Source: a virus (taxonomy: Duplodnaviria > Caudoviricetes). Taken from it: 43,181 nt of DNA. Of the stretch, positions 4,378 through 37,785 are shown piece after piece (position 1 is the first letter of the stretch; every line of letters starts with the position of its first letter). The notes under the pieces were generated by a model. It saw only the letters and a list, made by a program, of their open reading frames with translations. It did not search any database and was not told where the DNA came from. The stretch lies in IMG/VR virus record IMGVR_UViG_3300048856_000126, positions 1-43,181 of that record; one strand, given 5' to 3'. Made by a program: the position numbers and the translations under genes.

Positions 4378-4541
4378 GCGAGTCGACGCACAAGGCCGAT
4401 GGTGTGTCGCTCCCGGCCCGAGTCGTCCACTTCCGAAAGCCGGGGTTGCGCGACTACCTATGCGAATCCCCCGCAGGGCTCGTCACCGAATTCGCCCCCG
4501 GGGTCACGTGCAAGAAGTGCTTGGAGTGGCTCCATGCCTGA
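4374..4541 (+). CDS. small Zn-finger-like protein (block 1, first gene)
   Basis: not in ORF track; MSESTHKADG...VVHFRK...YLC...TCKKCLEWLHA; ATGA overlap. Confidence 0.65.
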   Translation: MSESTHKADGVSLPARVVHFRKPGLRDYLCESPAGLVTEFAPGVTCKKCLEWLHA

Positions 4542-4848
4542 TCCCGACGGCGCGTCAAGTGAGGACCGGCTGGTGGTGAACGCCCCAAGGCGACGGACGC
4601 GGTGGGAAACCCCGCTACCGGCAACAACCGCGGCCGGGAGCGGGTCGATTGTGGATGAGGTCGAGGGGACAGTCCTCACGGTCCTGCGGCGCCACACCAT
4701 CGCCGCGTTCAACGGGACGCAGGTCGCCTGCTCGCACTGCCGTGCGTGGATGGAGAACGACGAGTGGCGTCGCCATCAGGCGGAGCTGGTCGCGCGGGCG
4801 ATCGAGCGACTCACTTCGCCCGTTTCGTCCATCCCGGACGCACCATGA
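4534..4848 (+). CDS. hypothetical protein (block 1, last gene)
   Basis: ATGCCTGA overlap; CSHC...H motif; ends LTSPVSSIPDAP. Confidence 0.6.
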   Translation: MPDPDGASSEDRLVVNAPRRRTRWETPLPATTAAGSGSIVDEVEGTVLTVLRRHTIAAFNGTQVACSHCRAWMENDEWRRHQAELVARAIERLTSPVSSIPDAP

Positions 4849-5087
4849 CCACCGCCGACACCCAGCTCGCCCAGCTCGACGCATGGCTGGCGGCGAACCC
4901 GATCACGTGGTCCACCCCGCGCACCGACCTCGACTTCGAGGACGAGGAGACGTTGCGGCGGTCGCGATCTGGCATGTCTCGTGCCGCCCGTCGTGAGCAG
5001 CGTAGGCCGCGCATCGACCGCCCGTCGGAGCCGTGGGCCGATTCGCTCGCCGCCTGCAACCCGCACGCGCACCTGGAGGCGTCGTGA
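4845..5087 (+). CDS. hypothetical protein
   Basis: ATGA overlap. Confidence 0.6.
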   Translation: MTTADTQLAQLDAWLAANPITWSTPRTDLDFEDEETLRRSRSGMSRAARREQRRPRIDRPSEPWADSLAACNPHAHLEAS

Positions 5088-5302
5088 TCGCCACGAGTCG
5101 TGCGTCGGCGTTCGTGGCGCAGGAGTTCGACTGCGCGGTCGTCCGGCTGCTGGAGCGGCTCGCGGGATGGCTCGACCGCCGTCGTTGCCGCGTCCCCTGA
5201 TCTCGGCGTGGCCATATGCCGCGTCGACCACCAACCACAAACAGCAGGGCCAGCGCCCGACTTCGACCCCGAGGCGCTGACCCCAACCACAAGGAGCATC
5301 TC

Positions 5303-5545
5303 ATGTTCGACAGCCAGGAATACAACGAGGCGGTCTTGGATCTACTCGCCGCCACGGTCCATGAGACCGAAGCGCGCAAGGCTCTGACCATCGCGTGCGA
5401 CACGGAGGCCGACGCGTTTTCGTCAGCCCTCACGCAGCAGAAGCGGCTCGCCGTGTATGCGGCCACCGAGCAGCGAGAAGATGCCGCCGAGAGGTACTAC
5501 AGCCAATACCTACGCGCCGGTCGCGAAGTGGTGGCCACCCGATGA
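5303..5545 (+). CDS. hypothetical helical protein
   Basis: AAGGAG RBS; MFDSQEYNEAVLDLL. Confidence 0.7.
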   Translation: MFDSQEYNEAVLDLLAATVHETEARKALTIACDTEADAFSSALTQQKRLAVYAATEQREDAAERYYSQYLRAGREVVATR

Positions 5546-5769
5546 CCGCCTCCCCCACCACCCTCGCAACCCTCATCCGCGGCTCCGTCGACCCCACCGC
5601 CCACCCACACGAGCCGCGCATCCTCACCGACGCCGGCTGTGTGCAGCTTCGTCTCGGCGGCTGGCTGCTGCTGACCGACGACTCGCGGCACCGGCTCGGG
5701 TCGTGGCGGTCGAGTGCTGAGGACGTCGCGGTCGCTTATTGGTGTCGCGTTGAGGCGGTGGCGGCATGA
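5542..5769 (+). CDS. hypothetical protein
   Basis: ATGA-coupled ORF. Confidence 0.6.
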   Translation: MTASPTTLATLIRGSVDPTAHPHEPRILTDAGCVQLRLGGWLLLTDDSRHRLGSWRSSAEDVAVAYWCRVEAVAA

Positions 5770-6167
5770 GCAGCGCTGACATCTCGTTCCGCCGACGCTG
5801 GAGCGGGGATGAAGAGGTGTTTCCGACCGACTGGACCTTCAATGGCCGTCGCCTCGTCGTCATCGACCCCGAAAATGACGATCACGTCGAGCTGCTCCGC
5901 GTGGCCATCTCGCGTCAGCCCATGACGCAGAACCTCGATCATCGCGCGGTCCAACTGGGCCTCATGTCGATGCTCGCACCCCCAAAGCCCGCGGAGCCGA
6001 CCGGCGACGGCGCTGTAGTCGAGGACCACCTAGGACACCGATGGGTCCGGATCGCCTCCCAGAACGGGTCTCCAGACAGTCCGCCGTGGCGTCATCGCGG
6101 ACATACCGCGCGCAGGTACGAGCAGATCGCAGCCGTCCGCGTGCTCTCCGAGGGTGTGACCGCATGA
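5766..6167 (+). CDS. hypothetical phage protein
   Basis: ATGA-coupled; PKPAEPTGDGAVVED...WVR. Confidence 0.7.
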   Translation: MSSADISFRRRWSGDEEVFPTDWTFNGRRLVVIDPENDDHVELLRVAISRQPMTQNLDHRAVQLGLMSMLAPPKPAEPTGDGAVVEDHLGHRWVRIASQNGSPDSPPWRHRGHTARRYEQIAAVRVLSEGVTA

Positions 6168-6249
6168 CCGCCCCGCTGACCACCGCCGACATCGCCGCGC
6201 TCCTGTTCACCCTGCGCGTCGCACAGGCCGAGGACGAGGGGGCCGAGTC

Positions 6250-6459
6250 ATGAGCGCCGCCATCGTGCGTCGAGCCGCCGACCAGATCCGCCGCGACCAG
6301 GAACGCGAAGAGAACCTCGGTCACATCGACGGGCGCACCTACGCGACCTGGCTCGCCGTCGCCGACTGGCTCGACGCCACCGCCGACGACTGGCAGCACG
6401 CCAACCACACCGTCCGCGCGCTCAGAGTCGCGCTGGCCTACCTCGGGGAGTCCGCATGA
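6250..6459 (+). CDS. hypothetical protein
   Basis: ATGA-coupled to tiny ORF 6164-6253. Confidence 0.65.
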   Translation: MSAAIVRRAADQIRRDQEREENLGHIDGRTYATWLAVADWLDATADDWQHANHTVRALRVALAYLGESA

Positions 6460-6677
6460 TCACGCGCGCTGACATCGCCGCCGGGCTCGACCATCCGTGG
6501 GCAGTCCTGCTCCTCGCGGCGGTCGTCGGAGTCCTCGGCGCCTGGTTCATCCTCGCCACCGCCAACGCGCTGTGGCTGCGGTTCGGACCCGACGAGCCGG
6601 TCGAGCCCATCGACGACATCGACGACGACGCCTGGTTCCGCGCTGCTGTGGCGCGGCGAGTGATGGAGGGGCAATGA
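6456..6677 (+). CDS. single-TM membrane protein
   Basis: WAVLLLAAVVGVLGAWFILATANALW. Confidence 0.65.
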   Translation: MITRADIAAGLDHPWAVLLLAAVVGVLGAWFILATANALWLRFGPDEPVEPIDDIDDDAWFRAAVARRVMEGQ

Positions 6678-7015
6678 GTGAGCACATGGCCGAGAGTGCG
6701 GCGACCACGCCATGCAGCCAAGATGACCACGATCGTGTGTTTCGGGCAGGTCGTGAGGCTGGCTATCGAGACGCCCTCATCGCACTCGCTGAGCGCCGTG
6801 GCCAATTCTTCGACGAACTCGACCGCGACATCGCTGATGCTCTCCGCCGAGACGCCGAGTACGTCACAGCCCACGATGCCGCGGTCCTGAAGGCTGCGGC
6901 GGACGCCGTCCAGGCGGAGCGGATCCGCCTTCATGAGGCCGGGGCTGGGCAGCCCCGGCAGATGGGTCTAGTTGACGCAGAGCGCATCATCCGAGGAGGG
7001 GTGCGCCGTGGTTGA
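6674..7015 (+). CDS. hypothetical protein (block 2, first gene)
   Basis: GGAGG RBS; MSEHMAESAATT. Confidence 0.7.
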   Translation: MSEHMAESAATTPCSQDDHDRVFRAGREAGYRDALIALAERRGQFFDELDRDIADALRRDAEYVTAHDAAVLKAAADAVQAERIRLHEAGAGQPRQMGLVDAERIIRGGVRRG

Positions 7016-7274
7016 GCGGCAGCCCCCGTCCCCGGTTGTCGTCATCTCGATTGACAACGTGCGGACCCTCCAGGACGTGCGGAAGTGGTCCGAGATCGTC
7101 GAGCATGTTGGCCTCCCGCCTAGCAGTCCGGTTGCCATCTCCGTGACTGGCGAGATCAAGGTCACCGCCTGGCTCGCTCAGGTCCCGTGGCCTCCCGACT
7201 TCTTCGACCTCGATGAGGATGACCAGCCGATCACTTCGCCCGTTTCGTCCACCGACGGGGGCAACCAACAGTGA
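7008..7274 (+). CDS. hypothetical protein (block 2, last gene)
   Basis: GAGGAGG RBS; ends QPITSPVSSTDGGNQQ. Confidence 0.6.
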   Translation: MVERQPPSPVVVISIDNVRTLQDVRKWSEIVEHVGLPPSSPVAISVTGEIKVTAWLAQVPWPPDFFDLDEDDQPITSPVSSTDGGNQQ

Positions 7275-7411
7275 CCTTCTACGACGACAACATTTCGAGC
7301 TGTCCCGGATGCACGCGCGGCCTCGACCCTGACGACCTCTGCGGCTGCGACGACGACACCGGGCCGCTGTGCTGTCGGTGCTGCTCGCTGGAGCATGGGA
7401 GGGCGGCGTGA
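7271..7411 (+). CDS. small Cys-rich protein
   Basis: GTGA-coupled at both ends; CPGC...CCRCC. Confidence 0.5.
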   Translation: MTFYDDNISSCPGCTRGLDPDDLCGCDDDTGPLCCRCCSLEHGRAA

Positions 7412-8223
7412 CTCTCCACATCTACGAGAACCTCACCCAGGGGTCCGACGAGTGGCACGCCGCACGACGAGGGATCGTCACGGCGTCCATCGTCGGCAAG
7501 CTCGTCGCCATCGAGTCGCCTGATGCCACGGCGGTCGACTGCCCGGCATGCAAAGCAGTGGTCGACGCGCCCTGCCTCAGCATGGCGAAGCGAAAGACCC
7601 CAGTCGCCATCAAGACGATCCACGACCAGCGAGCCAAGGCGGTTGCCGGCCTGCCAGCCACCTACGCGGTAGCCGACAACGACACCTCCCGCGCCGTCAT
7701 CGCCACTCTCGTCGCCGAACGCATCGCCGGGCTCACCGAGGACTCGCCGATGACCTCCGACATGTGGCGCGGGGTCGAGAGCGAGCCAATGGCCCGCGAC
7801 GCCTATGACAGGCACCGAGCGCCCGTGACCGAGGTCGGCTTCATGACCGAGGGCAAGTGGGGATTCACCATCGGCTACTCGCCGGACGGACTCGTTGGCG
7901 ACGACGGTCTGATCGAGATCAAGGCGCCGCGAGCAAAGACCCACGTGCTGACGGTGCTCGCCGATGAGGTGCCCGCCTACAACATGGCGCAGCTGCAATG
8001 CGGCCTGCTCGTGTCCGGGCGCAAGTGGATCGACTTCATCCCCTACGTCGGCGGCCTCCCGCTGTGGTCGAAGCGCGTCTATCCCGACCCAGCCTGGCAC
8101 GAGGCGATCGTCGCCGCCGTCGCCAACTTCGAGACGACCGCGGCCGAGATGGTCGCCGCCTACAACAACGCAACCGAGGGCCTGCCGGTGACCGAGCGGC
8201 CCGACCTAGAGATTCGGATCTGA
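7408..8223 (+). CDS. YqaJ/lambda-exonuclease family recombination nuclease with Zn-finger insertion
   Basis: QGSDEWHAARRGIVTAS, YSPDGLV, IEIKAP, AQLQ; inserted CPAC...C...H. Confidence 0.9.
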   Translation: MTLHIYENLTQGSDEWHAARRGIVTASIVGKLVAIESPDATAVDCPACKAVVDAPCLSMAKRKTPVAIKTIHDQRAKAVAGLPATYAVADNDTSRAVIATLVAERIAGLTEDSPMTSDMWRGVESEPMARDAYDRHRAPVTEVGFMTEGKWGFTIGYSPDGLVGDDGLIEIKAPRAKTHVLTVLADEVPAYNMAQLQCGLLVSGRKWIDFIPYVGGLPLWSKRVYPDPAWHEAIVAAVANFETTAAEMVAAYNNATEGLPVTERPDLEIRI

Positions 8224-8227
8224 CCTC

Positions 8228-8740
8228 ATGGACATTACCGACACCCTCGCGCCCAAGAGTGACCAGCTCGACGCCGTCGACCTTCTCGGTGGCCCTCAGA
8301 CCTTCACCATCACCGACGTCTCGCGCGGCAACAGCGAGCAGCCCGTGCAGATCGCCCTCGCCGAGTTCCCGCGCGTCTGGCGACCAGGAAAGTCGATGCG
8401 ACGGGTCCTGGCTCACTGCTGGGGCACGGATGCGTCGAAGTGGGTCGGCCGTCGCGTCACGCTCTACTGCGACGAGTCTGTGACCTTCGGCAACGACGTC
8501 GTGGGCGGCACGAGGATCAGCCACCTGTCGCACATCGACAAGCGCAAGTCGATCCCGCTGCTGATCAAGAAGGGCCGGAGCGCGGCGTTCACCGTCGACC
8601 CACTCCCCGACGCGCCGCCGCCCGACCCGAACGCCGCCCGCATCGACGCGCTGAAGGCCGAGTGGAAGACCGCCGACGCTGACCGACGCGCTGCCATCGA
8701 GGCCGAGGTCGCTGAGCTGAAGCAGGGGGCCGCGTCGTGA
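8228..8740 (+). CDS. exonuclease-partner protein (putative ssDNA-binding/annealing)
   Basis: directly follows exonuclease; KSDQLDAVDL...KSMRRVL..CWG...WVGRRVTLY; not obviously RecT or Erf. Confidence 0.55.
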   Translation: MDITDTLAPKSDQLDAVDLLGGPQTFTITDVSRGNSEQPVQIALAEFPRVWRPGKSMRRVLAHCWGTDASKWVGRRVTLYCDESVTFGNDVVGGTRISHLSHIDKRKSIPLLIKKGRSAAFTVDPLPDAPPPDPNAARIDALKAEWKTADADRRAAIEAEVAELKQGAAS

Positions 8741-8973
8741 GTGGGGTGCGAGGTGAGCACTCGGCCGAGGAAGAGCAGATGGCGGTGCGTCACCCGAAGC
8801 GGGGCAAGGCGCACCTCATCGCCCCCGACTGGGAGCGCTGGTACCTGCGGCCCACCACCTCATGCGGGCTCTCGGGGACGCCCCTGACTGACTCGATCGA
8901 GGCGCGCCGGACTGCACCCAAGGACCGCTGCAAGTCCTGCTTCCGCGAGACGAAGGGAGCCCGTTATGCCTGA
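8737..8973 (+). CDS. small Zn-finger-like protein (block 3, first gene)
   Basis: KAHLI...SCG...RCKSC; contains left site EHSAE. Confidence 0.65.
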   Translation: MSGVRGEHSAEEEQMAVRHPKRGKAHLIAPDWERWYLRPTTSCGLSGTPLTDSIEARRTAPKDRCKSCFRETKGARYA

Positions 8974-9286
8974 CCCCCAGGCCGAGAGTGCGGCGACTCG
9001 GACGCTCGCTCACTGGCGGCACGAAGCGGGCCTTGGGGTCTACAGCGGGCCGCGCAATGGCGGACACGGGGGGTTCGGCCGCGACTACCGGATTGTCGCG
9101 CTGGCCGAGCGCCTCCAGGCCGTCGCCGAACTCGTCGTGGACCTGACCGAAGAGGTCGACGAGCTCCGAGCGGACGTCCCTCCCGTGGGCCCCTCCCGCG
9201 TCGCCCACATGTACCGCACCGCCGGCCTGAGCGATGCCCGTGACCGACTCGCAACGCTGCTCGCGAAGGAGTTCCCCAATGCCTGA
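8966..9286 (+). CDS. hypothetical protein
   Basis: ATGCCTGA overlap; MPDPQAESAAT. Confidence 0.7.
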   Translation: MPDPQAESAATRTLAHWRHEAGLGVYSGPRNGGHGGFGRDYRIVALAERLQAVAELVVDLTEEVDELRADVPPVGPSRVAHMYRTAGLSDARDRLATLLAKEFPNA

Positions 9287-10058
9287 GCCCCAGGCCGAGA
9301 GTGCTCGGAGGCGGACGCCCCGAATCCTCGACCTGTTCTGCTGCGCGGGCGGCGCAGGCACCGGCTACCAGCGCGCGGGCTTCGAAGTCTTCGGCGTCGA
9401 CATCGACCCCCAGCCGCGCTATCCATTCATGTTCTGTCGCGGTGACGCGGTCGTGGTCTTGGAACACCTGCTCGACGGCGCGGAGGTTGGGCTGACCTGG
9501 CCGCCATTCGTCGATCCGGAGCCGGTGTGGCTGAGCCTGTCCGACTTCGATGCCATTCACGCCTCGCCGCCATGTCAGCGATACAGCGACTTGGCGAAAC
9601 GCAACGGCAACGCCCACGACTGGCCCGGCCTCGTGGAGCCCGTCCGCGAGCTGCTCAGCCAGACCGGCCTGCCGTACATCATCGAGAACGTCGAAGGGGC
9701 TCCGTTATTGGAGCCGATCACGCTCTGCGGCGCGATGTTTCCGGAGTTGCGCGTCTATCGCCACCGCCTCTTCGAGTCCAACGTCCCGATGGCCGCACCG
9801 GAGCACCCCCGTCATGCCGAGCTGACATTCACCCACGACAAGCGGAAGCGCCACTACGGTCAGCCGCTGGATCTGACCACCATGCGAGTGCAGGTGACCG
9901 GAGGCGGAAACGCGCCCGTGTGGGCCAAGCGCCAGGCGATGGGCGGGCTCAACTGGATGACGGGCCACGAGGTAAACGAGGCGATCCCGCCGGCCTACAC
10001 GGAGTTCCTCGGACGCCAGCTCATCGAGCACGTGACCATCGACGAGGTGGCGGCGTGA
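9279..10058 (+). CDS. C5 DNA cytosine methyltransferase
   Basis: LDLFCCAGG (motif I), HASPPCQ (IV), IIENV (VI), RHRLFE (VIII). Confidence 0.9.
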   Translation: MPEPQAESARRRTPRILDLFCCAGGAGTGYQRAGFEVFGVDIDPQPRYPFMFCRGDAVVVLEHLLDGAEVGLTWPPFVDPEPVWLSLSDFDAIHASPPCQRYSDLAKRNGNAHDWPGLVEPVRELLSQTGLPYIIENVEGAPLLEPITLCGAMFPELRVYRHRLFESNVPMAAPEHPRHAELTFTHDKRKRHYGQPLDLTTMRVQVTGGGNAPVWAKRQAMGGLNWMTGHEVNEAIPPAYTEFLGRQLIEHVTIDEVAA

Positions 10059-10237
10059 GCTGGCTCGAAGGCGTCCATTGCGCCTGCGGGGAGGACGACT
10101 GGAGCTCGGTCCCAGCTCCGGCCGGCGTGCAGACGCTGACGAACTGCCAGCCGATCACTTCGCCCGCCGCGCTTCAAGACTCGAACGAAATCGTTCAAGT
10201 AGATCCGAGCACAACGCCTGCTGGCGGTGAGGGCTGA
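10055..10237 (+). CDS. small hypothetical protein (block 3, last gene)
   Basis: GTGA overlap; contains QPITSP right site. Confidence 0.5.
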   Translation: MSWLEGVHCACGEDDWSSVPAPAGVQTLTNCQPITSPAALQDSNEIVQVDPSTTPAGGEG

Positions 10238-10440
10238 TGGCCGCCACCTGCCCGCTGTGCGACCGCGTCCACGTGCGCGGTGACGTCATTGCCGTGGGCA
10301 AGTTTGACGCGGCCGGCGCCTACGCCTACCGGACTGCCGACGGAGCCCTCCATGCGACCCGCGAGGACGGTCAGGAGCACCTCTGCTGGCAGCGCCGCCA
10401 GCGACCCACTCCGCCCGAACAGACCGGATCGGCCACATGA
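10237..10440 (+). CDS. small hypothetical protein
   Basis: TGATG overlap; CPLC...HLC. Confidence 0.6.
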   Translation: MAATCPLCDRVHVRGDVIAVGKFDAAGAYAYRTADGALHATREDGQEHLCWQRRQRPTPPEQTGSAT

Positions 10441-10763
10441 GCACCGCCGCCTCCGGACGCGCCCGCGAACACAAGATCCGCGACGAGCTCACCGCCCACG
10501 GCTGGCATCTCGTCGCACGATCCGCCGGCAGCAAAGGAGCGGCCGACCTCGTCATGGTCCACGCCGAGTACGGCCTCGCGCTCATCCAGGTCGGCACCGA
10601 CAAGAAGTCCCTCGGGCCAGCCGACCGCAACCGCCTGCTCGACCTCGCCGACCTCTGCTCGGCGCTACCCATCGTCGCCCGCTGTGCGCCGCGACAACCC
10701 ACCGTCTACACGCGCGCGACTCGGGACGTGCCTTCGACCTGGACCGAATGGAGTCCGTCATGA
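10437..10763 (+). CDS. Hjc-type (PD-(D/E)xK) Holliday junction resolvase
   Basis: GRAREHKIRDEL..HGW..RSAGSKGAADLV...LIQV. Confidence 0.8.
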   Translation: MSTAASGRAREHKIRDELTAHGWHLVARSAGSKGAADLVMVHAEYGLALIQVGTDKKSLGPADRNRLLDLADLCSALPIVARCAPRQPTVYTRATRDVPSTWTEWSPS

Positions 10764-10936
10764 CCGAGAACATCGGCAGCACCAACGAACAGACCATGTT
10801 CCTCGACGAGCGCCTGCCCCTCGTCGTCGAATCCGAAGCCGTCATCGCCGAACACGCACCTGCTGCGCTGCGGGTGCTCGCCAGGTTCGGAGCGATGGAC
10901 CTGGCGGCGGCGCTGGGGGTCGGGGAGCCAGCATGA
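10760..10936 (+). CDS. hypothetical protein
   Basis: ATGA-coupled at both ends. Confidence 0.55.
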   Translation: MTENIGSTNEQTMFLDERLPLVVESEAVIAEHAPAALRVLARFGAMDLAAALGVGEPA

Positions 10937-11451
10937 GCCGCTGCGAATGGTGCGGGGCTCGGACGACGAGCGCGGCGGTCAAGACGTGCGGCGGATGCAA
11001 GGGCGTCATCTCAACCTTGGGCCGGACGTCGCCTGAGACGCACGGCCTGTCGCGCGGCACATGGCACACCAGGCCGGGCGGCGTACAAGGTCTGGATCTC
11101 GTGGGACGAGGACGTGGCATGACCGCCCTCGAAGGCGGCACTTGGGTCCAGCGTGGCGCAGTGAAGGTCTGGACGACGCACGTACCGCCGCCCGTGCAGC
11201 CCCGCCGACAGCTCGACCTCACGAAGCTCATCGCGTGCCCGACCTGTCGCGCGGCAGTGACGGAGACCTGTCGCACCAAGAGCGGTCATCGCACCACGCC
11301 CCACGGCTCGCGGCTCGCACCCAGGCTCTGCGCGTGCGGCTCACTGCTGGGCACGAAGCGCCGGCTGTGCGACGCCTGCCGTGACGAGTCGATGAGGGTC
11401 AGCAAGCGGGACCACCTGCGGCGACTCCGGGGAGGTCGAGATGCGGCCTGA
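10933..11451 (+). CDS. Zn-finger protein(s); probably two genes (10933-11122 and 11119-11451) fused by a +1 indel
   Basis: CEWC/CGGC then CPTC..C..H, CAC..CDAC; see finding. Confidence 0.6.
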   Translation: MSRCEWCGARTTSAAVKTCGGCKGVISTLGRTSPETHGLSRGTWHTRPGGVQGLDLVGRGRGMTALEGGTWVQRGAVKVWTTHVPPPVQPRRQLDLTKLIACPTCRAAVTETCRTKSGHRTTPHGSRLAPRLCACGSLLGTKRRLCDACRDESMRVSKRDHLRRLRGGRDAA

Positions 11452-11617
11452 GATCAAGACCCCCAACCCCGTCCAGCTCACCGTCGAGGGCGCCTGGTTC
11501 GTGCTCACCTGCGCCTGCAAGTGGCTGCGCGCAACCACGAGCGAAGGGCTGCTGAACGAGTACCGCCGAGAGCACGAGAAGCGGTGCAAGGTGGCGCGTG
11601 GGGAGGAGGCGGCGTGA
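11441..11617 (+). CDS. small Zn-binding protein
   Basis: GGAGG RBS; LTCACKW...HEKRC. Confidence 0.55.
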   Translation: MRPEIKTPNPVQLTVEGAWFVLTCACKWLRATTSEGLLNEYRREHEKRCKVARGEEAA

Positions 11618-11651
11618 TGGTGTTTCCGCAGGTCAGAGGCGGTTTTGATGT

Positions 11652-11693
11652 TAGAATGCAAGTGGCCGAGAGGTGCGCTAACACCCCCCGGCC
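11652..11693 (+). promoter_or_regulatory. internal promoter with 5' hairpin
   Basis: TAGAAT -10 followed by GGCCGAGAGGTG-CGCTAA-CACCCCCCGGCC in a gap of an otherwise coupled operon. Confidence 0.55.
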
Positions 11694-11735
11694 GACCCAC
11701 CTGTCCGACACAACCGGAAGGGGGCTGTCGTCATT

Positions 11736-12212
11736 ATGACGCACCCTAAATCTTCAACTCACTCGGCCGACGCCACGCTCGTCGGAGTAGTTCGCCCCGA
11801 CGGCGCAGCCATGGTTCACCGGAGCGACTGCTTGCATGTTCGGGACGCGATGAGCGCGGTCCGGATGTCGGCGGCAGACATCCAGTCAGACGACCGAAAG
11901 TGCCCGAAGTGCATGTCGGACCGAACGATCGTGGCTGCGGCGCTCGGCGGCCATCACCGAGTGCCGATCCATGCTTTCGACGGGCGGCACGTCGGCTGGC
12001 ACGACACCTACATCACCTTCCCCGAGGCGGAAGTGATGGCCGAATCCTTGGTCCCGGTGATCGCTCGTCTCTACGAGGAGCGCTCTCGGTCGGCCATCAA
12101 GACGGCTAAGGCCCTGGCTTGGGACGAGGGCTACGCCGATGCGATCCGCGATTCCGAGGCCGACGACTACACGTCCGAGAACCCCTACTGGGAAGCGGAT
12201 AGCGATGCCTGA
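11736..12212 (+). CDS. hypothetical protein with Zn-finger-like N-terminus (block 4, first gene)
   Basis: THSAD left site; MVHRSDC...KCPKC; AWDEGY...NPY C-terminus. Confidence 0.7.
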   Translation: MTHPKSSTHSADATLVGVVRPDGAAMVHRSDCLHVRDAMSAVRMSAADIQSDDRKCPKCMSDRTIVAAALGGHHRVPIHAFDGRHVGWHDTYITFPEAEVMAESLVPVIARLYEERSRSAIKTAKALAWDEGYADAIRDSEADDYTSENPYWEADSDA

Positions 12213-12405
12213 TATCGATCTTCATGCCGCGCTCGCAGGTCAGCGCGAGGCGATCGTCAACAAGATCGAGGAGATGGCTCTCGCCATCCTGACCGATCCC
12301 GAGGCCGACGATGCGGGCGCTCCGATCGCCGCCGCATTCCTGCGCCAGGCCGCCGAGGTCGCTCGCTGGACGGTTTACGACCCGACGGAGGCCTCCCGTG
12401 GCTGA
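12205..12405 (+). CDS. hypothetical protein
   Basis: ATGCCTGA overlap. Confidence 0.6.
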   Translation: MPDIDLHAALAGQREAIVNKIEEMALAILTDPEADDAGAPIAAAFLRQAAEVARWTVYDPTEASRG

Positions 12406-12904
12406 CCCGATGACCTACCTCCCACTGAAGTCCGTGCTCGCCGGATGGCGCGACGGAGACGAGCGTGAGGGTGGGTGGGAAGAGGAGTTCCGGTTCCTGC
12501 GCACTGAGCACTTCGAACACCTCATGGAGGTGACTCAGTCCATCATCCGCGGCGGGATCTGCGAGCCGATCATGCTCGGGAGTGATGGTCGGGTGTGGGA
12601 CGGGCACCACCGCCTATGCGCCGCCCAGGCGCTCTACCTGGAGTACGTGCCGGTGGCCTTCGCACCACCCGAGGCCCCCCAGCCCGATACCGGCGTCGAG
12701 TCCACCGCGGCGCACCTGCTCGGCCTCCAATGCAGAGCTTGCAATCACAGCATCCTGCGACTTCACCACACCGCCGGCTGCGACTACCTCAATGCCTGCG
12801 ACTGCGACCAAACCATCGGGACCGCCCTTGCTGCAGCCCTCGCCGGGCGCTTGTTGGATCCGGTCACTTCGCCCGAAGAGGGTCGACCAGGGGGCGATGC
12901 GTAG
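12398..12904 (+). CDS. ParB/Srx N-terminal-domain protein (block 4, last gene)
   Basis: SIIRGGICEPIMLGSDGRVWDGHHRLCAA; ends PVTSPEEGRPGGDA. Confidence 0.75.
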   Translation: MADPMTYLPLKSVLAGWRDGDEREGGWEEEFRFLRTEHFEHLMEVTQSIIRGGICEPIMLGSDGRVWDGHHRLCAAQALYLEYVPVAFAPPEAPQPDTGVESTAAHLLGLQCRACNHSILRLHHTAGCDYLNACDCDQTIGTALAAALAGRLLDPVTSPEEGRPGGDA

Positions 12905-13233
12905 TGGCGTTTCCGCGACCTGACTACATGCAGCCCGCGGCCAGCGAGCTCGCGAACCTCGGCGAGCGATACCGAAAGACACGGGGGGGCAATCGGAGCC
13001 GCACCTGGCGTCCCAGCAAACAGCGAATGGAGTTCGTCCGGGCCTTCGTCTTAGATCGCGACGACTACGCCTGTCAGTCATGCGGGTGGCGCGCGGAGCG
13101 CGACGGATACCACCCGGGCGCGGGCCTGCATCTGGACCACCTCATTCCCTATCGAGACGGTGGTTTGTTCTACCCAGGCAACCTCCAAGCCCTTTGCGAA
13201 TCATGCAACTGCCGCAAGGGGGCGCGACCATGA
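12904..13233 (+). CDS. HNH endonuclease
   Basis: VLDRDDYACQSCG...LHLDHLIP..DGG...NLQALCESCNCRKG. Confidence 0.9.
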   Translation: MAFPRPDYMQPAASELANLGERYRKTRGGNRSRTWRPSKQRMEFVRAFVLDRDDYACQSCGWRAERDGYHPGAGLHLDHLIPYRDGGLFYPGNLQALCESCNCRKGARP

Positions 13234-13655
13234 CCACCAAGGACCCTCGACAGTACGCCCGTATGTCCGTGGACATGCCGACCAATAAGAAGTTGAAGGG
13301 GGCGCCCCCTCAGACCAAGTGGCTCGCGTGTGTCGGCGTCCTCTGGTCGACCCAGAACCTCACCGACGGACTCGTGACGCCAGCCATCGTCTGCGCCACC
13401 GCCGAGGTCCCGATCAAGCACTCACGGGACCTCATCAACCGCGACGTCTGGCACGAGAAAGGGCACGCCTGCCCAGACTGTCGACAGCCGGACATTGCCG
13501 CCGAGGTGGTCATTCACGACTTCCTCATTCACCAGGACAGCGCTGAGCAGATCCGCCGCAATCGCGACGAGAAGGCCAAGTCCGGCCGCCTTGCCAATCA
13601 CCTGCGATGGAAGCACGCCGGCCCGATCGAGGAGTGTGTCAAGTGCTCCGAGTAG
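13230..13655 (+). CDS. probable replication initiator (N-terminal domain)
   Basis: NLTDGLV, IHDFLIHQ, ANHLRW...CVKC pattern; followed by iterons. Confidence 0.65.
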   Translation: MTTKDPRQYARMSVDMPTNKKLKGAPPQTKWLACVGVLWSTQNLTDGLVTPAIVCATAEVPIKHSRDLINRDVWHEKGHACPDCRQPDIAAEVVIHDFLIHQDSAEQIRRNRDEKAKSGRLANHLRWKHAGPIEECVKCSE

Positions 13656-13660
13656 TCCCG

Positions 13661-13737
13661 AGTGGGATCCCAGTTGGGATCCGCCACCGGATATCCGAAG
13701 TGGGATCCCGAAACGGATCCCGAAGCGGGGACTCCCG
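13661..13737. repeat. GGATCC iteron cluster (probable origin)
   Basis: GGATCC at 13665, 13677, 13703, 13715; GGATATCC at 13689; GGGGACTCCC at 13727; more AT-rich tract follows. Confidence 0.7.
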
Positions 13738-13857
13738 TAACAGCAGCAGTAGAAGTAACACCGTTGTGCTTCTTGCTTCTTCAGAGCCGATCAACCAAGT
13801 CCAAATCGTTAAGGCAGTAGAGGACCAGGTTGCGTCGCTTGGATTTGGAGCTACGCG

Positions 13858-14340
13858 ATGAACGAGAACGAGATCGGACGGATCGCAGCGGCCGTCAACT
13901 GCTTGCGACCTGACTGGCCCATCGGCAGCCTCTCGACGTTGCTCAACCGCGCCGAATTGGTTCGTCGTCCTCGCCGAGACGTAGCGGTCGCCCTCACCTG
14001 GGTTGCCTGCGACTCCGAGACCAAGACCCCCGCTCGCGTCATCGAAGGCGGGCCGTGGTGGATGGCGACCAGCGCAGAGGGTGGCGAGGACCGCCGCTGG
14101 GCGCCACCGAAGGACCACCAGGCCTGCGGACGACACCCCGGCGAGTGGCGCGACCGCTGCCGAGCCTGCACCGCCGACCGACTGGCTGGCGAGGTCGACG
14201 AGGCACTCCCCCGCACGCCGGCCGAAGAGGCGAAGGCGGCGGCACGAGCTGCTGTCGCCGCCGCAAGAGCGACGACCGCCGAGCCGACCACCGCAACCCC
14301 CGAGACCACCACCGACGAAGCCCAGGAGGGCGCACGATGA
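13858..14340 (+). CDS. hypothetical protein, putative replication accessory
   Basis: follows initiator; LRPDW...KTPARV..GPWW, C..H...C..C. Confidence 0.6.
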   Translation: MNENEIGRIAAAVNCLRPDWPIGSLSTLLNRAELVRRPRRDVAVALTWVACDSETKTPARVIEGGPWWMATSAEGGEDRRWAPPKDHQACGRHPGEWRDRCRACTADRLAGEVDEALPRTPAEEAKAAARAAVAAARATTAEPTTATPETTTDEAQEGAR

Positions 14341-14546
14341 GCATCAACGAGTCCACGAGCGAGGCGTCGGTTTCGATCGACGGCCCCGTGACCTTCGCGG
14401 CGGTCCGCGAGGCGCTCGATCACCTGCAGGCGACCTACGTGTTCGACCGCGACGACTTGGTGACGGTCAGTCCGACCGGCCGCGTGATCGCCAGACGGGT
14501 CACCACTCGCGCGAGTGGTGAGGCTGAGGAGGGGCGCGATGAGTGA
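14337..14546 (+). CDS. hypothetical protein
   Basis: AGGAGG RBS; ATGA overlap. Confidence 0.6.
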   Translation: MSINESTSEASVSIDGPVTFAAVREALDHLQATYVFDRDDLVTVSPTGRVIARRVTTRASGEAEEGRDE

Positions 14547-14991
14547 GCACTCGGCCGAAACTGCGGCGAGCGACCTAGAACGGCAGGATCGTGATAGCCA
14601 GGAGTCCAGCGCCGTAGAGCACTGCGCCGATGACCGCCAGCAGCAGCGAGGCCCACGCCAGCCAGACAACAGTCCTAGCCGTGGCGGCAGGAGAGCCGAA
14701 CCACTCGTTGAGCCTCTCCACGAAGCACACCCTACGCCCGCCGAGGCCGCGTGCGAGTGCGTGGCCTACGCGAATCGCACTGACTACGGGACCGGCGTCG
14801 AGCACGACGTGGACACGGCCTCGTGCTCAATCCACAGCGTGAACGACGACGGCGAAATCGTGATCACAACGCCCGCGAGCGCCGAGCGGGTCAAGACCTC
14901 CGGTCAGCCCATTGACCTGCTGGCTGCCTTGCAGCGTTCGATCGACGCCGCGAAGTCCGACCGACGCAGTACGCCCGAGGTGCAGCGATGA
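14539..14991 (+). CDS. hypothetical protein (block 5)
   Basis: MSEHSAETAA start, STPEVQR end; Ku-tail-like IDLLAALQRSIDAAK. Confidence 0.65.
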   Translation: MSEHSAETAASDLERQDRDSQESSAVEHCADDRQQQRGPRQPDNSPSRGGRRAEPLVEPLHEAHPTPAEAACECVAYANRTDYGTGVEHDVDTASCSIHSVNDDGEIVITTPASAERVKTSGQPIDLLAALQRSIDAAKSDRRSTPEVQR

Positions 14992-15272
14992 GCGAGACGT
15001 TGGCCGAGGTGCTCGCCCAGCACGCGGACATGACCGACCGGAGCTCGAAGGACGGTTGCTCGTGCGGCGGGGCTTCGAACCCGAGCGACTACGCCGACCA
15101 CCTCGCGACCGCCGTGCTGGCTTGGGTCGAGGCGAGGTTGGCGGGGGCGCGGGAGGACGTTAAGGCCGCGGTGCTCGCTAAGTACGACTTCGAGTACGAC
15201 GCGCAAGAGCAGGTCACTCACGCCGCGCTCGACGTCGTGCGTGAGGCGCTGGGCGTGGAGGTGGGGTCGTGA
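14988..15272 (+). CDS. hypothetical protein
   Basis: coupled ORF; H...CSCG...H. Confidence 0.65.
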   Translation: MSETLAEVLAQHADMTDRSSKDGCSCGGASNPSDYADHLATAVLAWVEARLAGAREDVKAAVLAKYDFEYDAQEQVTHAALDVVREALGVEVGS

Positions 15273-15580
15273 GCACCTGTGACACCTGCGCTCACTGGCT
15301 CCGGCCCGAGAAGCGCAACGGGTTCGGGAATGCGGTCAAGTTCGAGGACGACGAATGGAACGACGACCTCGCCGGAGGTCTCGGCGGCTACGTCAAGGGC
15401 GACACGGCGGATCGCCTGTTCGGCGAGTGCCAGGGCGTCCCGTTCGGCGACGCGCTGACCGGCCCGCCACCGCTCGCTGCCATTCGTGATGGCAGCGACT
15501 ACAAGGCCGACCTGTTCACGCAGGCGAAGTTTGGGTGCGTGCTGCACGCCGCGCTTGATCGCTACGAGGGGGACGCATGA
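15269..15580 (+). CDS. hypothetical Zn-binding protein
   Basis: CDTCAHW...GEC...FGCVLH. Confidence 0.65.
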   Translation: MSTCDTCAHWLRPEKRNGFGNAVKFEDDEWNDDLAGGLGGYVKGDTADRLFGECQGVPFGDALTGPPPLAAIRDGSDYKADLFTQAKFGCVLHAALDRYEGDA

Positions 15581-15912
15581 GCACCGACTACGGCGCGCTG
15601 CGGGAGGCGGCGGAGGCGGTCGACCTGGCCGACGGTGAGATCGGTTGGTACGACGCGAACGACGAGCAACCCAGTGAGATCCACACCTGGGATCCGAGCG
15701 AGATCCAGTTCATTGCCGCCGCCTCGCCTGACGTGGTGCTCGCGCTGCTCGACGAGGTGGAGGCGCTGCGGGCGAAGGTGGCGCGGGTCGAGGTGCTGGT
15801 GACCGAGTGGGACATGTCTGGGCGGATGGGCCACCACAACGCGGCCGGATTTGCGGGGGCACTTCGGGCCGCGCTTGATGACAGCAACGACGACCGGGGG
15901 GACGAGCGATGA
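15577..15912 (+). CDS. Ead/Ea22-like protein
   Basis: YGALREAAEA...FIAAASPDVVLALLDEVEAL. Confidence 0.75.
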   Translation: MSTDYGALREAAEAVDLADGEIGWYDANDEQPSEIHTWDPSEIQFIAAASPDVVLALLDEVEALRAKVARVEVLVTEWDMSGRMGHHNAAGFAGALRAALDDSNDDRGDER

Positions 15913-16727
15913 GCAACGTGTGCAGGTGTGGACGACCAACCCGAGACGCCGCCTACGTGTGCGACGAGTGCGCCGACTCGTTGGCCCGGGCGCTCGGGGA
16001 CGTGCCGTGGCTCGACGAGGAGCTCGAAGTCACCATCACGAAGCAGAAGGGCGTCGACTACCGACGTGTCGGCGGCGGAAAGGGTGCCAGGAAGGCGAAT
16101 GAGCGGCCTCTCCCGGCCTCGTGGGGTGCGAGTGAGGCCCGGGGCCACCTGAAGGCTCTGCTCGTCTCCTGGGCGCTCTATTGCTCTCAGGAAGGCGTTC
16201 GGCATCGCGAGACGTCCAACGACCTGCCCGCCGACAACCTCGTCGCGCTCTCCCGTTGGCTCATCTGGCGAGTCGACGGACTCATGCTCCACGACATCGG
16301 CAGCGAGGCGGTCGACGAGATCACGTCCGCCGTCGCCCACTGCCACCGCCTCATCGACCGGCCGGCGGATCGGCAGTACCTCGGCACCTGCCCCACCTGC
16401 CTGTCGGGCAGATTGTTCAGCCGTGCGGGATCGGCCTGGGCAAACTGCGAGGAGTGCGACACGACGCACGACGCCGAGGAGATCCGGGTCAAGCTGCTGG
16501 CCGAGTTGGACGACCGGCTCTGCACCGCCGCCGAGATCGCCAAGCTGTCGACGTACCTCGGGCTGAAGGCGGACCGGGAGCAGGTGCGGAAGCGGATCAA
16601 CAAGTGGGCTCAACGCGGGGTGCTGGCCGAAGCTGCCTCGATCAGTGACGAGCCGACCTACCGATTCGGCACGGTCTACGCGATGCTCGCGGCCGACGAG
16701 TACCGAACGTCGAAGGCCGCCGGATAG
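15909..16727 (+). CDS. Zn-finger/HTH protein, probable late-gene regulator
   Basis: last early gene; CxC..CxxC, CPTC..CEEC, C-terminal HTH (VRKRINKWAQRG...YRFGTV). Confidence 0.65.
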   Translation: MSNVCRCGRPTRDAAYVCDECADSLARALGDVPWLDEELEVTITKQKGVDYRRVGGGKGARKANERPLPASWGASEARGHLKALLVSWALYCSQEGVRHRETSNDLPADNLVALSRWLIWRVDGLMLHDIGSEAVDEITSAVAHCHRLIDRPADRQYLGTCPTCLSGRLFSRAGSAWANCEECDTTHDAEEIRVKLLAELDDRLCTAAEIAKLSTYLGLKADREQVRKRINKWAQRGVLAEAASISDEPTYRFGTVYAMLAADEYRTSKAAG

Positions 16728-16810
16728 CACGTGACTAGGCATATTGCCCAGCGTTCTTGCGAAAGGCTGGGCGATCTGTCACCATTCCGTGCGTAGGGAC
16801 ATTTGTCTCT

Positions 16811-16857
16811 GAAGCGCCCCCGCCGTGAGTCTTAGGCTCAACAGGTTGGGGCGTTTC
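16811..16857 (+). terminator. hairpin at early/late boundary
   Basis: GAAGCGCCCC...GGGGCGTTTC. Confidence 0.5.
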
Positions 16858-16898
16858 GCATGTCCGCCTCGGTAAGCGCGCGGTGCTGCCATCGCTTC

Positions 16899-26760: not shown

Positions 26761-26772
26761 TCCCACGAACGG

Positions 26773-33629: not shown

Positions 33630-33639
33630 GGGGGACGAC

Positions 33640-34671: not shown

Positions 34672-34686
34672 CACCAAGGAGGCGGC

Positions 34687-35295: not shown

Positions 35296-35296
35296 G

Positions 35297-35605: not shown

Positions 35606-35692
35606 GTGCTGCACCGCATCCCCCGCCTCCCGTCCGAACGCACGCGCCGTCTGCGCGTGGCTCTCGCTCATGCCATCTCCGGAGGTGACGAC

Positions 35693-36373: not shown

Positions 36374-36374
36374 C

Positions 36375-36854
36375 CTAGGGGTTGCTAGGAGACTCGTCGT
36401 AGTTCATGTCCCCATCTTGGCGCACCGCGAACGGCTCAACGTCCATGACTTGGTGGACAGTCGAACCCGTTCCCATGACGCCGTCCGGCCGCCAGGGCTG
36501 TTCGTAGTCCGGGTGGTCGGCGTACACGACGGCGAGGTACTTCACGATGTCAGGCTGATCGCCGTTCGCCTCCATCTCCTCCCGTGACTGACCTCTCCCC
36601 AACTCGCCCTCGATTCGGAGCCAGTCCACCCAGGCCTCCCCCACGATCCGCCGCTTGGCCTCACACTCGGCCAGCACGCGGGTCGGGTCGATCGTGAGCG
36701 CCGGGTAGTCCATGTACCCGGTGCCAGCCGGCTGGAGGTCTGAACTCAGTTCTGACGACGCGTGGCCGAACTCGCCCCGCAGGTCCGCCTCCACGCCCCG
36801 CGCGGCCGCTTCGTCCTCAGCGATCCGCGCCAGCAGGAACTCGGTCAGAGTCAC
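36375..36854 (-). CDS. DUF6221-family protein (copy 1)
   Basis: LTEFLLARIAEDE...RVLAECEAKRRI...YADHPDY..PW. Confidence 0.85.
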   Translation of the reverse strand: MTLTEFLLARIAEDEAAARGVEADLRGEFGHASSELSSDLQPAGTGYMDYPALTIDPTRVLAECEAKRRIVGEAWVDWLRIEGELGRGQSREEMEANGDQPDIVKYLAVVYADHPDYEQPWRPDGVMGTGSTVHQVMDVEPFAVRQDGDMNYDESPSNP

Positions 36855-37000
36855 CGCTTCCTCTTCCCGTACCGCCGCAAGTGCTCGACCACCACGTCGG
36901 TCAGCGTCTTGCCCTCGGCGGTCGCTCTCTCGACAGCAGCGGTCTTGATGTCCTCAGGGATGCGGAAACCCGTGACCGGCGTCTTGGGCTTGTTTGGCAC
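36851..37000 (-). CDS. ribbon-helix-helix (Arc/CopG-like) regulator
   Basis: MPNKPKTPVTGFRIPEDIKTAA...TLTDVVVEHLRRY; TAGCGT 7 nt before GTG. Confidence 0.8.
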   Translation of the reverse strand: MPNKPKTPVTGFRIPEDIKTAAVERATAEGKTLTDVVVEHLRRYGKRKR

Positions 37001-37029
37001 GCGGGAGACGCTACCGGGTGTATGCACGC

Positions 37030-37173
37030 CTAGCCCCTCTTCTCGGGCGGAAAGATCACATGCCACCAGTCGCCGATCTCATCCTGGCCGCACGCATCGT
37101 CGTGCGCATGGTTAGGCGCACAGCGCTCCTGTGGCTCGCCGGGATCACCTGCTGGGTAGCCCACGTCAGTCAC
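37030..37173 (-). CDS. small hypothetical protein
   Basis: GTGACTGA overlap with upstream gene; 47 aa. Confidence 0.4.
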   Translation of the reverse strand: MTDVGYPAGDPGEPQERCAPNHAHDDACGQDEIGDWWHVIFPPEKRG

Positions 37174-37369
37174 GGTCCCCACCACCCTCGGTGATTGCGG
37201 GCGTGGTGAGTCGCTTCGCCCGCTCGGCGTAGCGGCCCGAGAGCACGTCGCAGTAATGGCATCCCGGATGGTCGGTCCAGCGGGTCAGCACGCCCATGCT
37301 GTCGATCTGGACGTGCCCGTTGGTCTCGGCCCAGTGGTCCCAGGCGTCGAGGGTTCGCGCGACGGTCAC
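37166..37369 (-). CDS. hypothetical protein (block 6, last gene)
   Basis: GTGA overlap; CHYC; ends RLTTPAITEGGGDRD. Confidence 0.6.
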   Translation of the reverse strand: MTVARTLDAWDHWAETNGHVQIDSMGVLTRWTDHPGCHYCDVLSGRYAERAKRLTTPAITEGGGDRD

Positions 37370-37785
37370 TGGACACGCCTCCCGCCCATGTAGATGCGCA
37401 CGCCGCGACCTGAGCGGATGGCGAGGCACTCGGGACAGTCGCCCTCGCGCTCCTCGCCGAGCCGGTCACTGGGGCCGATCTCGCCGCGACAGACGGGGAT
37501 CTCGGGTGCCAGCACGGCGCGGAGGTGAATGACGCCCAACCTGGGTGGCGGCGGGGCGGCTCGCAGTCGCAGCGGCCAGCAGACCTTGCACCGGTCGGCG
37601 ATGGCGGTAGTGCTGAGTGCGACCTGCGAGTAGCCCCACAAGAGGGCTCCACAGCCGGTCCCGCTCGGCGTGATGACACCTTCGTCGGTCTCCCACCAGG
37701 AGCCCATCCGATGGACCTTGCCGGAGTCGGGATTCACCCACGCCTCGTGATCACCATCGGCCTTCTGATCATCTGCGGTGTTCAT
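37366..37785 (-). CDS. double Zn-finger-like protein (block 6, first gene)
   Basis: TACTGT 6 nt before ATG; KVH..CG..CKVC and IH..C..CPEC. Confidence 0.7.
   Translation of the reverse strand: MNTADDQKADGDHEAWVNPDSGKVHRMGSWWETDEGVITPSGTGCGALLWGYSQVALSTTAIADRCKVCWPLRLRAAPPPPRLGVIHLRAVLAPEIPVCRGEIGPSDRLGEEREGDCPECLAIRSGRGVRIYMGGRRVQ

What the first reader, a model, noticed from the sequence alone, without database searches (positions are those of the whole stretch)
4386..37770. Six accessory gene blocks bracketed by paired L/R sites: candidate phage gene-cassette system
Seen: left sites lie in the first 4-9 codons of the first gene, always read H/P/Q-x-A-E/D: GACGCAC-AA-GGCCGATGGTG (CAC at 4389), TGAGCAC-AT-GGCCGAGAGTG (6683), TGAGCAC-TC-GGCCGA (8758), AACTCAC-TC-GGCCGA (11760), TGAGCAC-TC-GGCCGAAACTG (14548), and on the minus strand TGATCAG-AA-GGCCGATGGTG (37770-37749). 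Right sites lie near the end of the last gene, always read T/S-S/T-P: TCACTTCGCCCG at 4811, 7231, 10155, 12864, GCAGTACGCCCG at 14966, and minus GCGACTCACCACGCCCG (37214-37198). L and R alternate along the genome. Identities extend to 21 nt (4811/7231), 20 nt (7223/10147), 18 nt (6688/8980) and 16 nt (8753/14543) between otherwise unrelated genes. L and R share a left half (GA.(T/G)CAC) and differ in the right half, like attL/attR; L is also quasi-palindromic (CAC-N10-GTG). Inference: the blocks are exchangeable cassettes (integron-like or MPME-like) inserted so that translational coupling is preserved. No dedicated recombinase is visible besides Int and the exonuclease pair. I do not know of a description of this motif pair.
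Basis: partly seen in the sequence, partly recalled or inferred. Interest (0 to 1): 0.9.

Follow-up and report, generated by a model that had tools for sequence, protein, structure and literature searches.

The report
Palindrome-ended swappable phage gene cassettes
In this temperate phage and several other actinobacterial phages, small accessory genes are bracketed by two short DNA sites hidden inside their first and last codons; the same genome positions carry different genes in different phages, so the sites likely mark a previously undescribed gene-swapping system whose enzyme is still unknown.

Summary
The sites are real: coordinates and repeat lengths are exact and far above shuffles. The same L/R pair brackets unrelated cargo in the same syntenic slots of other phage records (G309, G748, G749, G754, L149), and brackets genes in two phages that share no early-region gene with the window (G752, G753). 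L..R pairs occur in 17 of 520 fetched loci, all from these carriers. New here: each site is arm, 6-bp centre, arm, and the inner arms of L and R are inverted repeats. They fall into arm types that are re-paired across slots and phages. Joining R-left to L-right would give a palindrome around a 6-bp spacer, the layout of tyrosine-recombinase sites. Best reading (0.55): non-autonomous gene cassettes exchanged by an unidentified recombinase acting in trans. Against it: no empty site, no circle junction and no recombinase shared by all carriers; reads could not be examined. Target duplication, a general mRNA stem and the resident integrase were tested and not supported. The scan noted analogous but different boundary systems in E. 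coli prophages; nothing for this DNA.

The parts
4374..4848 (+). Block 1: two unknown genes (55 and 104 aa, 8-nt overlap)
   Evidence: same slot holds an unrelated L..R gene in G309 and G748
4386..4411 (+). L1 site (arm, centre GGCCGA, inner arm)
   Evidence: inner arm is 11/12 complementary to R6 and 9/12 to R1
4805..4830 (+). R1 site (inner arm, centre CGCCCG, outer arm)
6674..7274 (+). Block 2: two unknown genes between a membrane-protein gene and the gene before the exonuclease
   Evidence: same slot filled with unrelated cargo in G309 and L149, no cassette there in G748
6680..6705 (+). L2 site
7225..7250 (+). R2 site; inner arm is the exact 12/12 inverse of an L arm in G748
8737..10440 (+). 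Block 3: five genes including a C5 DNA methyltransferase (9279-10058); site order L L L R R R
   Evidence: slot after the 8228 homologue also filled in G748 and G749
8755..8780 (+). L3a site
8972..8997 (+).
9285..9310 (+). L3c site at the start of the methyltransferase; leader is present or absent among close homologues
10149..10174 (+). R3a site
10203..10228 (+). R3b, weak R whose inner arm is 9/12 complementary to L3c
   Evidence: pairing chosen after seeing the match
10400..10425 (+). R3c site at the end of gene 10237-10440
11736..12904 (+). Block 4: three genes, last with a ParB-like domain
   Evidence: G309 has an L..R gene before its homologue of 13230
11757..11782 (+). L4 site, degenerate (inner arm 1/10 complementary to R4)
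12858..12883 (+). R4 site
14539..14991 (+). Block 5: one 150-aa ORF with L, an internal in-frame R and a terminal R
   Evidence: slot also filled in G309, G748, G754
14545..14570 (+). L5 site; inner arm 8/10 complementary to R5
14858..14883 (+). Internal R (R5x); inner arm 11/12 complementary to L6
14960..14985 (+). R5 site
37166..37785 (-). Block 6: two unknown genes on the opposite strand in the lysis region
   Evidence: G309 and G749 have opposite-strand cassettes in the same region
37745..37774 (-). L6 site
37186..37215 (-). R6 site
37032..37061 (-). R7 site at the end of the 47-aa gene 37030-37173, just upstream of the Arc-like gene
42035..42060 (+). R-like site at the end of the DUF3263 gene, overlapping the integrase 3' end; possibly a by-product of the integrase C-terminus
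7408..8740 (+). Context: YqaJ exonuclease and its partner gene (unknown family); candidate for the homologous-recombination rival
36851..37027 (-). Context: Arc-like repressor, shared by four carriers; candidate for the operator rival
42033..43181 (-). Context: tyrosine integrase of the prophage; not shared by all carriers

Best explanation
L and R are the two ends of small gene cassettes that carry different genes in the same slots of different phages, and they are likely the left and right products of a site-specific recombinase supplied from elsewhere. Shown: each site reads arm, 6-bp centre, arm; the centres differ in a fixed way (L ends CCGA; R is mostly CGCCCG); the inner arms are inverted repeats that come in matching types; the sites lie in fixed reading frames, and stop/start overlaps keep the operon coupled. 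Inferred: a cassette leaves or enters as a circle whose joint is a palindrome of about 12-6-12 bp, the geometry of tyrosine-recombinase sites with unequal 6-bp spacers. Later exchanges, L with L or R with R, would re-pair the arms and swap cargo without deleting the core genes between blocks. The enzyme is unidentified; a host or helper-element tyrosine recombinase is the best guess.
For: Same slots, unrelated cargo: none of the window's 15 block proteins hits G309 and only the methyltransferase hits G748 or G749 (39%, in another slot), while flanking genes do. L..R pairs in 17 of 520 loci (6.46 Mb, partly redundant), all from seven carrier records, 0 in the other 503. G752 shares no window protein in the 20 kb tested yet carries G749-type ends. 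Inner-arm complementarity: cognate 5.9/10 against 2.7 background, n=19, all-pairs permutation P about 1e-4; within-genome P 0.011 by duplex energy. Six cassettes outside that set match 9, 8, 8, 6, 8, 5 of 10. 10 of 26 distinct L arms match some R arm at 10/12 or better against a null mean of 2.9, 0 of 5000 shuffles. One G748 cassette has 12/12 arms. Close methyltransferase homologues either carry an H-S/T-A-E type leader or start without one. Two near-identical phages differ by an in-frame 117-nt block that ends inside the L centre.
Against: No clear empty site or circle-type junction in five carriers. No recombinase is shared: carriers have different integrases and att repeats, G752 and G753 show no tyrosine integrase though incomplete, and 0 of 5 records have a resolvase domain. 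Internal L sites have their own start codons, and R tails recur in different slots, which fits whole units moving rather than a crossover at the centre. Within-genome cognate preference is modest (match counts P 0.11-0.23); L4/R4 match 1 of 10. The invariance of the centre is partly built in, since sites were found by it. The breakpoint could also be a short slip. L-like starts are common in host genes (292 of 401 genomes have a match at one mismatch).
Confidence: 0.55

Rival explanations
1. L and R are conserved boundary sequences: whole gene units (start, leader, L, cargo, R, tail, stop) are swapped by short-homology recombination, L with L and R with R, using the phage exonuclease and annealing proteins, with no site-specific enzyme.
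For: Shared sequence runs from the start codon to about 12 nt inside L (profile), tails are shared across slots, tandem cassettes each have their own start and stop, no empty site is seen, an exonuclease gene sits between blocks 2 and 3. Boundary-sequence recombination is an established proposal (PMC3029335, passages).
Against: It does not explain why L and R arms are inverted repeats of matching types or why the centres are fixed. G752 lacks the window's exonuclease pair in the region tested.
Confidence: 0.22
2. The arms are half-sites for a dimeric DNA-binding protein, for example the Arc-like repressor, that marks or loops accessory genes to tune their expression, like stoperators; the slot pattern reflects selection to keep foreign genes under control.
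For: Arm consensus drifts by phage (same-genome non-cognate 5.3/10 against 4.2 across genomes); four carriers share an Arc-like gene; stoperators are a precedent (PMC3029335, passages).
Against: Sites lie inside coding ends in fixed frames, only around variable genes, always L before R; arm types are re-paired between phages; Arc-like genes also occur in loci with no L..R pair. No promoter consensus was found in 2400-17000, a weak test for an actinobacterial phage.
Confidence: 0.15
3. L and R pair in the mRNA, closing the cargo into a loop that controls translation or processing, or lets ribosomes pass to the next core gene.
For: The arms are complementary and lie close to start and stop codons; the helix is predicted with probability above 0.8 in 3 cassettes.
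Against: Only 3 of 21 folded cassettes form it on the sense strand (5 longer ones skipped); no strand bias in G-T pairs (18 against 15); several best partners lie in other slots or phages.
Confidence: 0.06
4. The motifs are chance products of common actinobacterial protein ends in GC-rich DNA.
For: L-like peptide starts are frequent in host genes.
Against: Shuffle nulls, 0 of 503 non-carrier loci, rare codons and inverted-arm types.
Confidence: 0.02

Closest known systems
Strand-biased circularizing integrative elements (SE) and Tn554-type elements (PMC10214605, passages read)
   Same: Ends form imperfect inverted repeats; the predicted attL x attR joint is a palindrome with a 6-bp spacer; spacers at the two ends differ; empty sites are not regenerated in SEs.
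   Different: SEs encode two tyrosine recombinases and two further proteins and are kilobases long in Gammaproteobacteria; these cassettes are 0.15-1.7 kb, encode no recombinase, and have both sites inside coding ends.
Inverted-repeat cassettes of the P2 Z/fun locus (recalled, and named in earlier findings e1-8113630 and e1-210175; paper not read)
   Same: Variable phage cargo between recombinase-type inverted sites at a fixed locus.
   Different: As recalled, one or few loci in enterobacterial P2-like phages; here six slots per genome, sites within reading frames, actinobacterial phages. Sequences were not compared.
Mycobacteriophage mobile element, MPME (PMC3029335 and PMC4351075, passages read)
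   Same: Very small actinophage element with inverted-repeat ends and a 6-bp feature at one end.
   Different: MPME has a fixed 123-residue ORF, about 440 bp, varied insertion sites and a variable 6 bp; here cargo varies, slots are fixed and the 6-bp centres are conserved.
Boundary (linker) sequences of lambdoid phages (as cited in PMC3029335; original papers not read)
   Same: Short conserved sequences at gene junctions between unrelated genes; exchange at them explains mosaicism.
   Different: Those are direct repeats of one junction; here two distinct sites bracket the cargo and are inverted repeats of each other.
Mobile insertion cassettes, MIC (PMC4337579, passages read)
   Same: Passenger genes between inverted repeats, no own transposase, mobilised in trans.
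   Different: MICs have IS-type terminal repeats and target duplications; no duplication signal here, and the repeats are inside genes.
Stoperators and SAS/ESAS of mycobacteriophages (PMC3029335, PMC3203893, passages read)
   Same: Short repeats near gene starts in actinophage genomes, oriented with transcription.
   Different: Those are mostly intergenic or upstream of starts and not paired around variable cargo.

Membership tests
SE (strand-biased circularizing element) | Predicted attL x attR joint forms imperfect inverted repeats | tested here: met
SE (strand-biased circularizing element) | [quoted passage not shown] | tested here: met
   arms are symmetric about a 6-bp centre
SE (strand-biased circularizing element) | Split attB retained at both borders, seen against an element-free genome | tested here: inconclusive
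   no empty site found; no element-free close relative available
SE (strand-biased circularizing element) | Encodes two tyrosine recombinases and accessory genes | tested here: not met
   block proteins have no integrase domain
Integron cassettes | Dedicated integron integrase beside one attI and an array (recalled) | tested here: not met
   only the prophage integrase is found; cassettes lie in six separate slots
Integron cassettes | One attC per cassette downstream of the gene, folding on one strand (recalled) | tested here: not met
   two sites inside coding ends; no strand asymmetry. No attC model was run; Rfam gave 0 matches
MPME | Fixed ORF of 123 residues in an element of about 440 bp | tested here: not met
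   cargo is unrelated between cassettes; no DNA match to isolated phages beyond the methyltransferase
MPME | Variable 6 bp beside the left repeat, varied targets | tested here: not met
   centres conserved and slots syntenic
MIC / non-autonomous transposon | Passenger genes between inverted repeats, no own transposase | tested here: met
MIC / non-autonomous transposon | Target-site duplication | tested here: not met
   junction match 4.5 against 4.3 nt, P 0.30, 24 blocks; tested only at the start-codon junctions
Boundary sequences | Same short sequence at junctions of unrelated genes, with different genes between in relatives | tested here: met
Boundary sequences | Exchange by general homologous recombination | not testable with these tools
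   needs experiment or close relatives
Stoperator / operator | Bound by a phage repressor, blocks transcription | not testable with these tools
   needs binding and expression assays

The most novel reading that the evidence does not exclude
Actinobacterial phages share a distributed, integron-like cassette system with no home integrase: gene-sized circles closed by a 12-6-12 palindrome are plugged by a host or helper recombinase into sites written into the first and last codons of genes, so unrelated temperate and non-integrating phages trade accessory genes without breaking translational coupling.
Probability: 0.35. Interest if true: 0.9.

Novelty: new variant of a known kind. Interest (0 to 1): 0.76.

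Why it matters
How phages acquire and swap their many small unknown genes is a long-open question, usually put down to random illegitimate recombination because conserved boundaries are rarely found (PMC3029335). Here a defined pair of sites marks exchangeable genes across unrelated phages, which makes the mechanism directly testable, gives a way to find accessory genes by their ends, and could point to a new recombinase-site pair that works inside reading frames.

Tried and rejected
Exact-pattern scans of viral contigs with window R (21 nt) and L (18 nt): 0 hits; a looser L pattern gave 11 hits, none with paired sites. 216 exonuclease-linked loci and 80 methyltransferase-linked viral loci were mostly too distant: only L149 and L071/L111 had L..R pairs. 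An L pattern over 401 genomes gave 22 matches against 6 control, none an array. A start-anchored L pattern was too common in host genes; 20 genomes with several hits showed no phage-like cluster. A tail-peptide protein search returned only the query; 149 ParB-like homologues had 0 leaders and 4 R-like tails. Resident integrase: a 9-nt likeness between R and two repeats in the window's att arm region is not paralleled in G748 or G749, and was not assessable in G309; an R-like antisense site at the integrase end occurs in 3 of 45 integrase ends, two carriers and one non-carrier, inconclusive. Target duplication rejected. General mRNA stem not supported. The idea that an empty site fuses the leader in frame to the next gene is not consistent: the frame is closed by a stop or out of register in several of 20 cases. 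A match to cluster B mycobacteriophages lacks the arm and is chance. Searches used two mis-picked L positions; one search corrects one and keeps a degenerate G309 site mis-picked, which lowers the cognate score. Sequencing reads could not be examined, so circles and empty sites in the source sample are untested. Literature searches listed no description of this site pair; only listings and the passages named were seen, no supplements, and most subscription papers are outside the library.
Full report
Setting. The window is a 43,181-bp provirus record of a temperate actinobacterial siphovirus: repressor 1763-2410, a long coupled early operon 2580-16727, structural genes, and a tyrosine integrase 42033-43181. 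The nearest named relatives of its exonuclease lie in Nocardioides and other actinobacterial contigs. It has no near DNA match among isolated phages.

The observation. Six of 83 genes carry L in the first 45 nt and six carry R in the last 90 nt; neither codon shuffling nor synonymous recoding reached this in 1000 trials. These patterns came from the same sequence, so this shows only that the repeats are not a product of composition. There are more sites than listed: L at 8980 and 9293, R at 10215, 10412, 14870 and 37049, so block 3 reads L L L R R R. All 8 genes that start with an 8-nt stop overlap lie in or abut a block. L4 and R5 are weak.

Other carriers. Most relatives lack the sites. A leader scan of the fetched loci found a prophage in genome G309, drawn from the Nocardioides sample, and the metagenome locus L149. 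A search with an early-gene alignment added G748 and G749. An R-only pattern gave 42 viral stretches, five from carriers, among them G752 and G753. G754 was among the exonuclease loci. With matrices trained on the window, G309, G748, G749 and L149, an L followed by an R in the right gene context occurs in 17 of 520 loci, all from these seven records, and in none of the other 503 (loci overlap, so these are not independent counts). L103, from a contig titled Arthrobacter, has a 51-aa gene with both ends that falls below that threshold.

Same slots, different cargo. By flanking homologues, slot 1 is filled in the window, G309 and G748; slot 2, after a membrane-protein gene and before the exonuclease, in the window, G309 and L149; slot 3, after the 8228 homologue, in the window, G748 and G749; slot 4 in the window and G309; slot 5, before the phrog_908 gene, in the window, G309, G748 and G754; slot 6, on the opposite strand near the lysis genes, in the window, G309 and G749. 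None of the window's 15 block proteins hits G309, and only the methyltransferase hits G748 or G749, at 39% and in another slot. In G748 the slot-2 membrane gene abuts the exonuclease directly, but the neighbouring small gene is missing too, so this is not a precise empty site. G752 shares no window protein over the 20 kb tested, and over its whole record only distant hits with other carriers, yet it carries ends of the G749 type.

Protein evidence. Among the 31 closest methyltransferase homologues, four carry an H-S/T-A-E leader by eye (three by strict pattern), and many start directly at the catalytic body. Members of two 90% clusters show the same variation. Controls: 0 of 119 exonuclease homologues, 1 of 89 more distant methyltransferases, 0 of 149 ParB-like homologues. 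Caution: such peptide starts are common in host genes, so a leader alone is weak evidence.

Anatomy. Aligned across 20 cassettes, each site is arm, 6-bp centre, arm. L centres end in CCGA; R centres are mostly CGCCCG, and CGGCCG in G754. Because sites were found by these centres, their invariance is partly built in. The inner arms are inverted repeats: cognate pairs match 5.9 of 10 against 2.7 for random gene positions, 5.3 for non-cognate pairs in the same genome and 4.2 across genomes (n=19, block 3 left out because its pairing was chosen after the fact). The within-genome preference is modest: P 0.011 and 0.025 by duplex energy, 0.11-0.23 by match count. Six cassettes outside that set match 9, 8, 8, 6, 8 and 5 of 10. 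The clearer result is that arms come in types: 10 of 26 distinct L arms match some R arm at 10 of 12 or better, against 2.9 expected, 0 of 5000 shuffles, and the window alone passes the same test. The best partners are often elsewhere: L1 with R6 (11/12), L6 with the internal R of block 5 (11/12), and window R2 and R3a with an L of G748 (12/12). So the arms arose as inverted pairs and were later re-paired.

Mechanism. Joining an R's inner side to an L's inner side gives a palindrome of about 12 bp, 6 bp, 12 bp. Two inverted arms around a 6-8 bp spacer is the layout of tyrosine-recombinase sites (established knowledge), and inverted repeats with a 6-bp spacer at the predicted joint are two of the three criteria used to call SE elements (PMC10214605, passages). 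I therefore infer cassettes that move as circles or are exchanged between unlike sites by a recombinase acting in trans (0.55). Unequal centres would disfavour simple L x R loss and allow L x L and R x R swaps, which fits full slots with changing cargo. G752 and G753, nearly identical around one cassette, differ by an in-frame 117-nt block ending inside the L centre; a short slip could also explain it.

What counts against. No clear empty site or circle-type junction was found in five carriers. Internal L sites have their own start codons, tandem cassettes in G754 each have a start and a stop, and R tails recur in different slots, as if whole units move. No recombinase is common to all carriers: integrases and att repeats differ, G752 and G753 show none though only 61% and 34% complete, and no resolvase domain was found in 5 records. 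Reads were not available, so excision is untested.

Rivals. Boundary sequences used by short-homology recombination (0.22) explain the slots and tails but not the inverted arm types. Operators for a dimeric protein such as the Arc-like repressor (0.15) explain phage-specific arm consensus but not the fixed frames and strict bracketing of variable genes. An mRNA stem (0.06) forms in only 3 of 21 folded cassettes, with no strand bias. Target duplication is not seen.

Comparison and novelty. It works most like SE or Tn554 ends and the P2 Z/fun cassettes (the latter recalled and named in earlier scan notes, not read), and resembles MPME and MIC in being small and non-autonomous, but fails defining tests for SE, integron, MPME and MIC. 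Nine literature searches listed no description of this pair; I read passages of PMC3029335, PMC10214605, PMC4351075, PMC3203893 and PMC4337579 and no supplements. The scan's own notes held nothing for this DNA and analogous systems in E. coli prophages. I rate it a new variant of a known kind, interest 0.76; if the circle model with a shared trans-acting enzyme holds (0.35) it would deserve 0.9.

Noticed in passing
window 17992-19567: The large terminase is split into two overlapping ORFs (329 and 203 aa), each matching its own PHROG family; G749 has hits to both parts.
   Followed up: no
window 14892-14963: The end of the block 5 ORF matches a 60-70 nt stretch at about 76-83% in many genomes of the Nocardioides sample; from memory it resembles a Ku protein C-terminus, not tested.
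   Followed up: no
window 14575-14805 (-): An antisense ORF inside block 5 ends in a hydrophobic, membrane-like stretch; it may be the real cargo gene.
   Followed up: partly
window 36375-36854 (-) and 41347-41688 (-): Two DUF6221 / phrog_6326 paralogues sharing exact repeats of 19, 17 and 15 nt.
   Followed up: no
window 41007-41032: A site with an R-type left arm and an L-like centre lies just after the cREC_REC gene and before a hairpin; no partner found.
   Followed up: partly
window 42035-42060 and L514 about 4860-4880: An R-like sequence overlaps the integrase 3' end on the opposite strand in the window and in G754, both ending in G-E-V; 13 DUF3263 homologues lack the window's tail.
   Followed up: partly
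window 841-972: Probable attachment core and arm region, with a 9-nt sequence repeated in inverted orientation at about 904 and 942-950; Rfam did not call the target RNA.
   Followed up: partly
L253 12182-14573 (G344): A prophage without L/R has its own shared gene tails (E-R-R-I-S-P twice) and 8-nt overlaps, perhaps a second site family.
   Followed up: no
P0129, P0133, P0143: A second leader type (M-T-D then proline-rich, G-V) on the same methyltransferase body.
   Followed up: no
L279, L287, L288 (G378): Three junctions after what looks like part of a tRNA gene match the L pattern at one mismatch; probably chance.
   Followed up: partly
G749, reverse coordinates 42434-45186: The phrog_908 gene appears in two pieces with tandem cassettes and other genes between them.
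   Followed up: no
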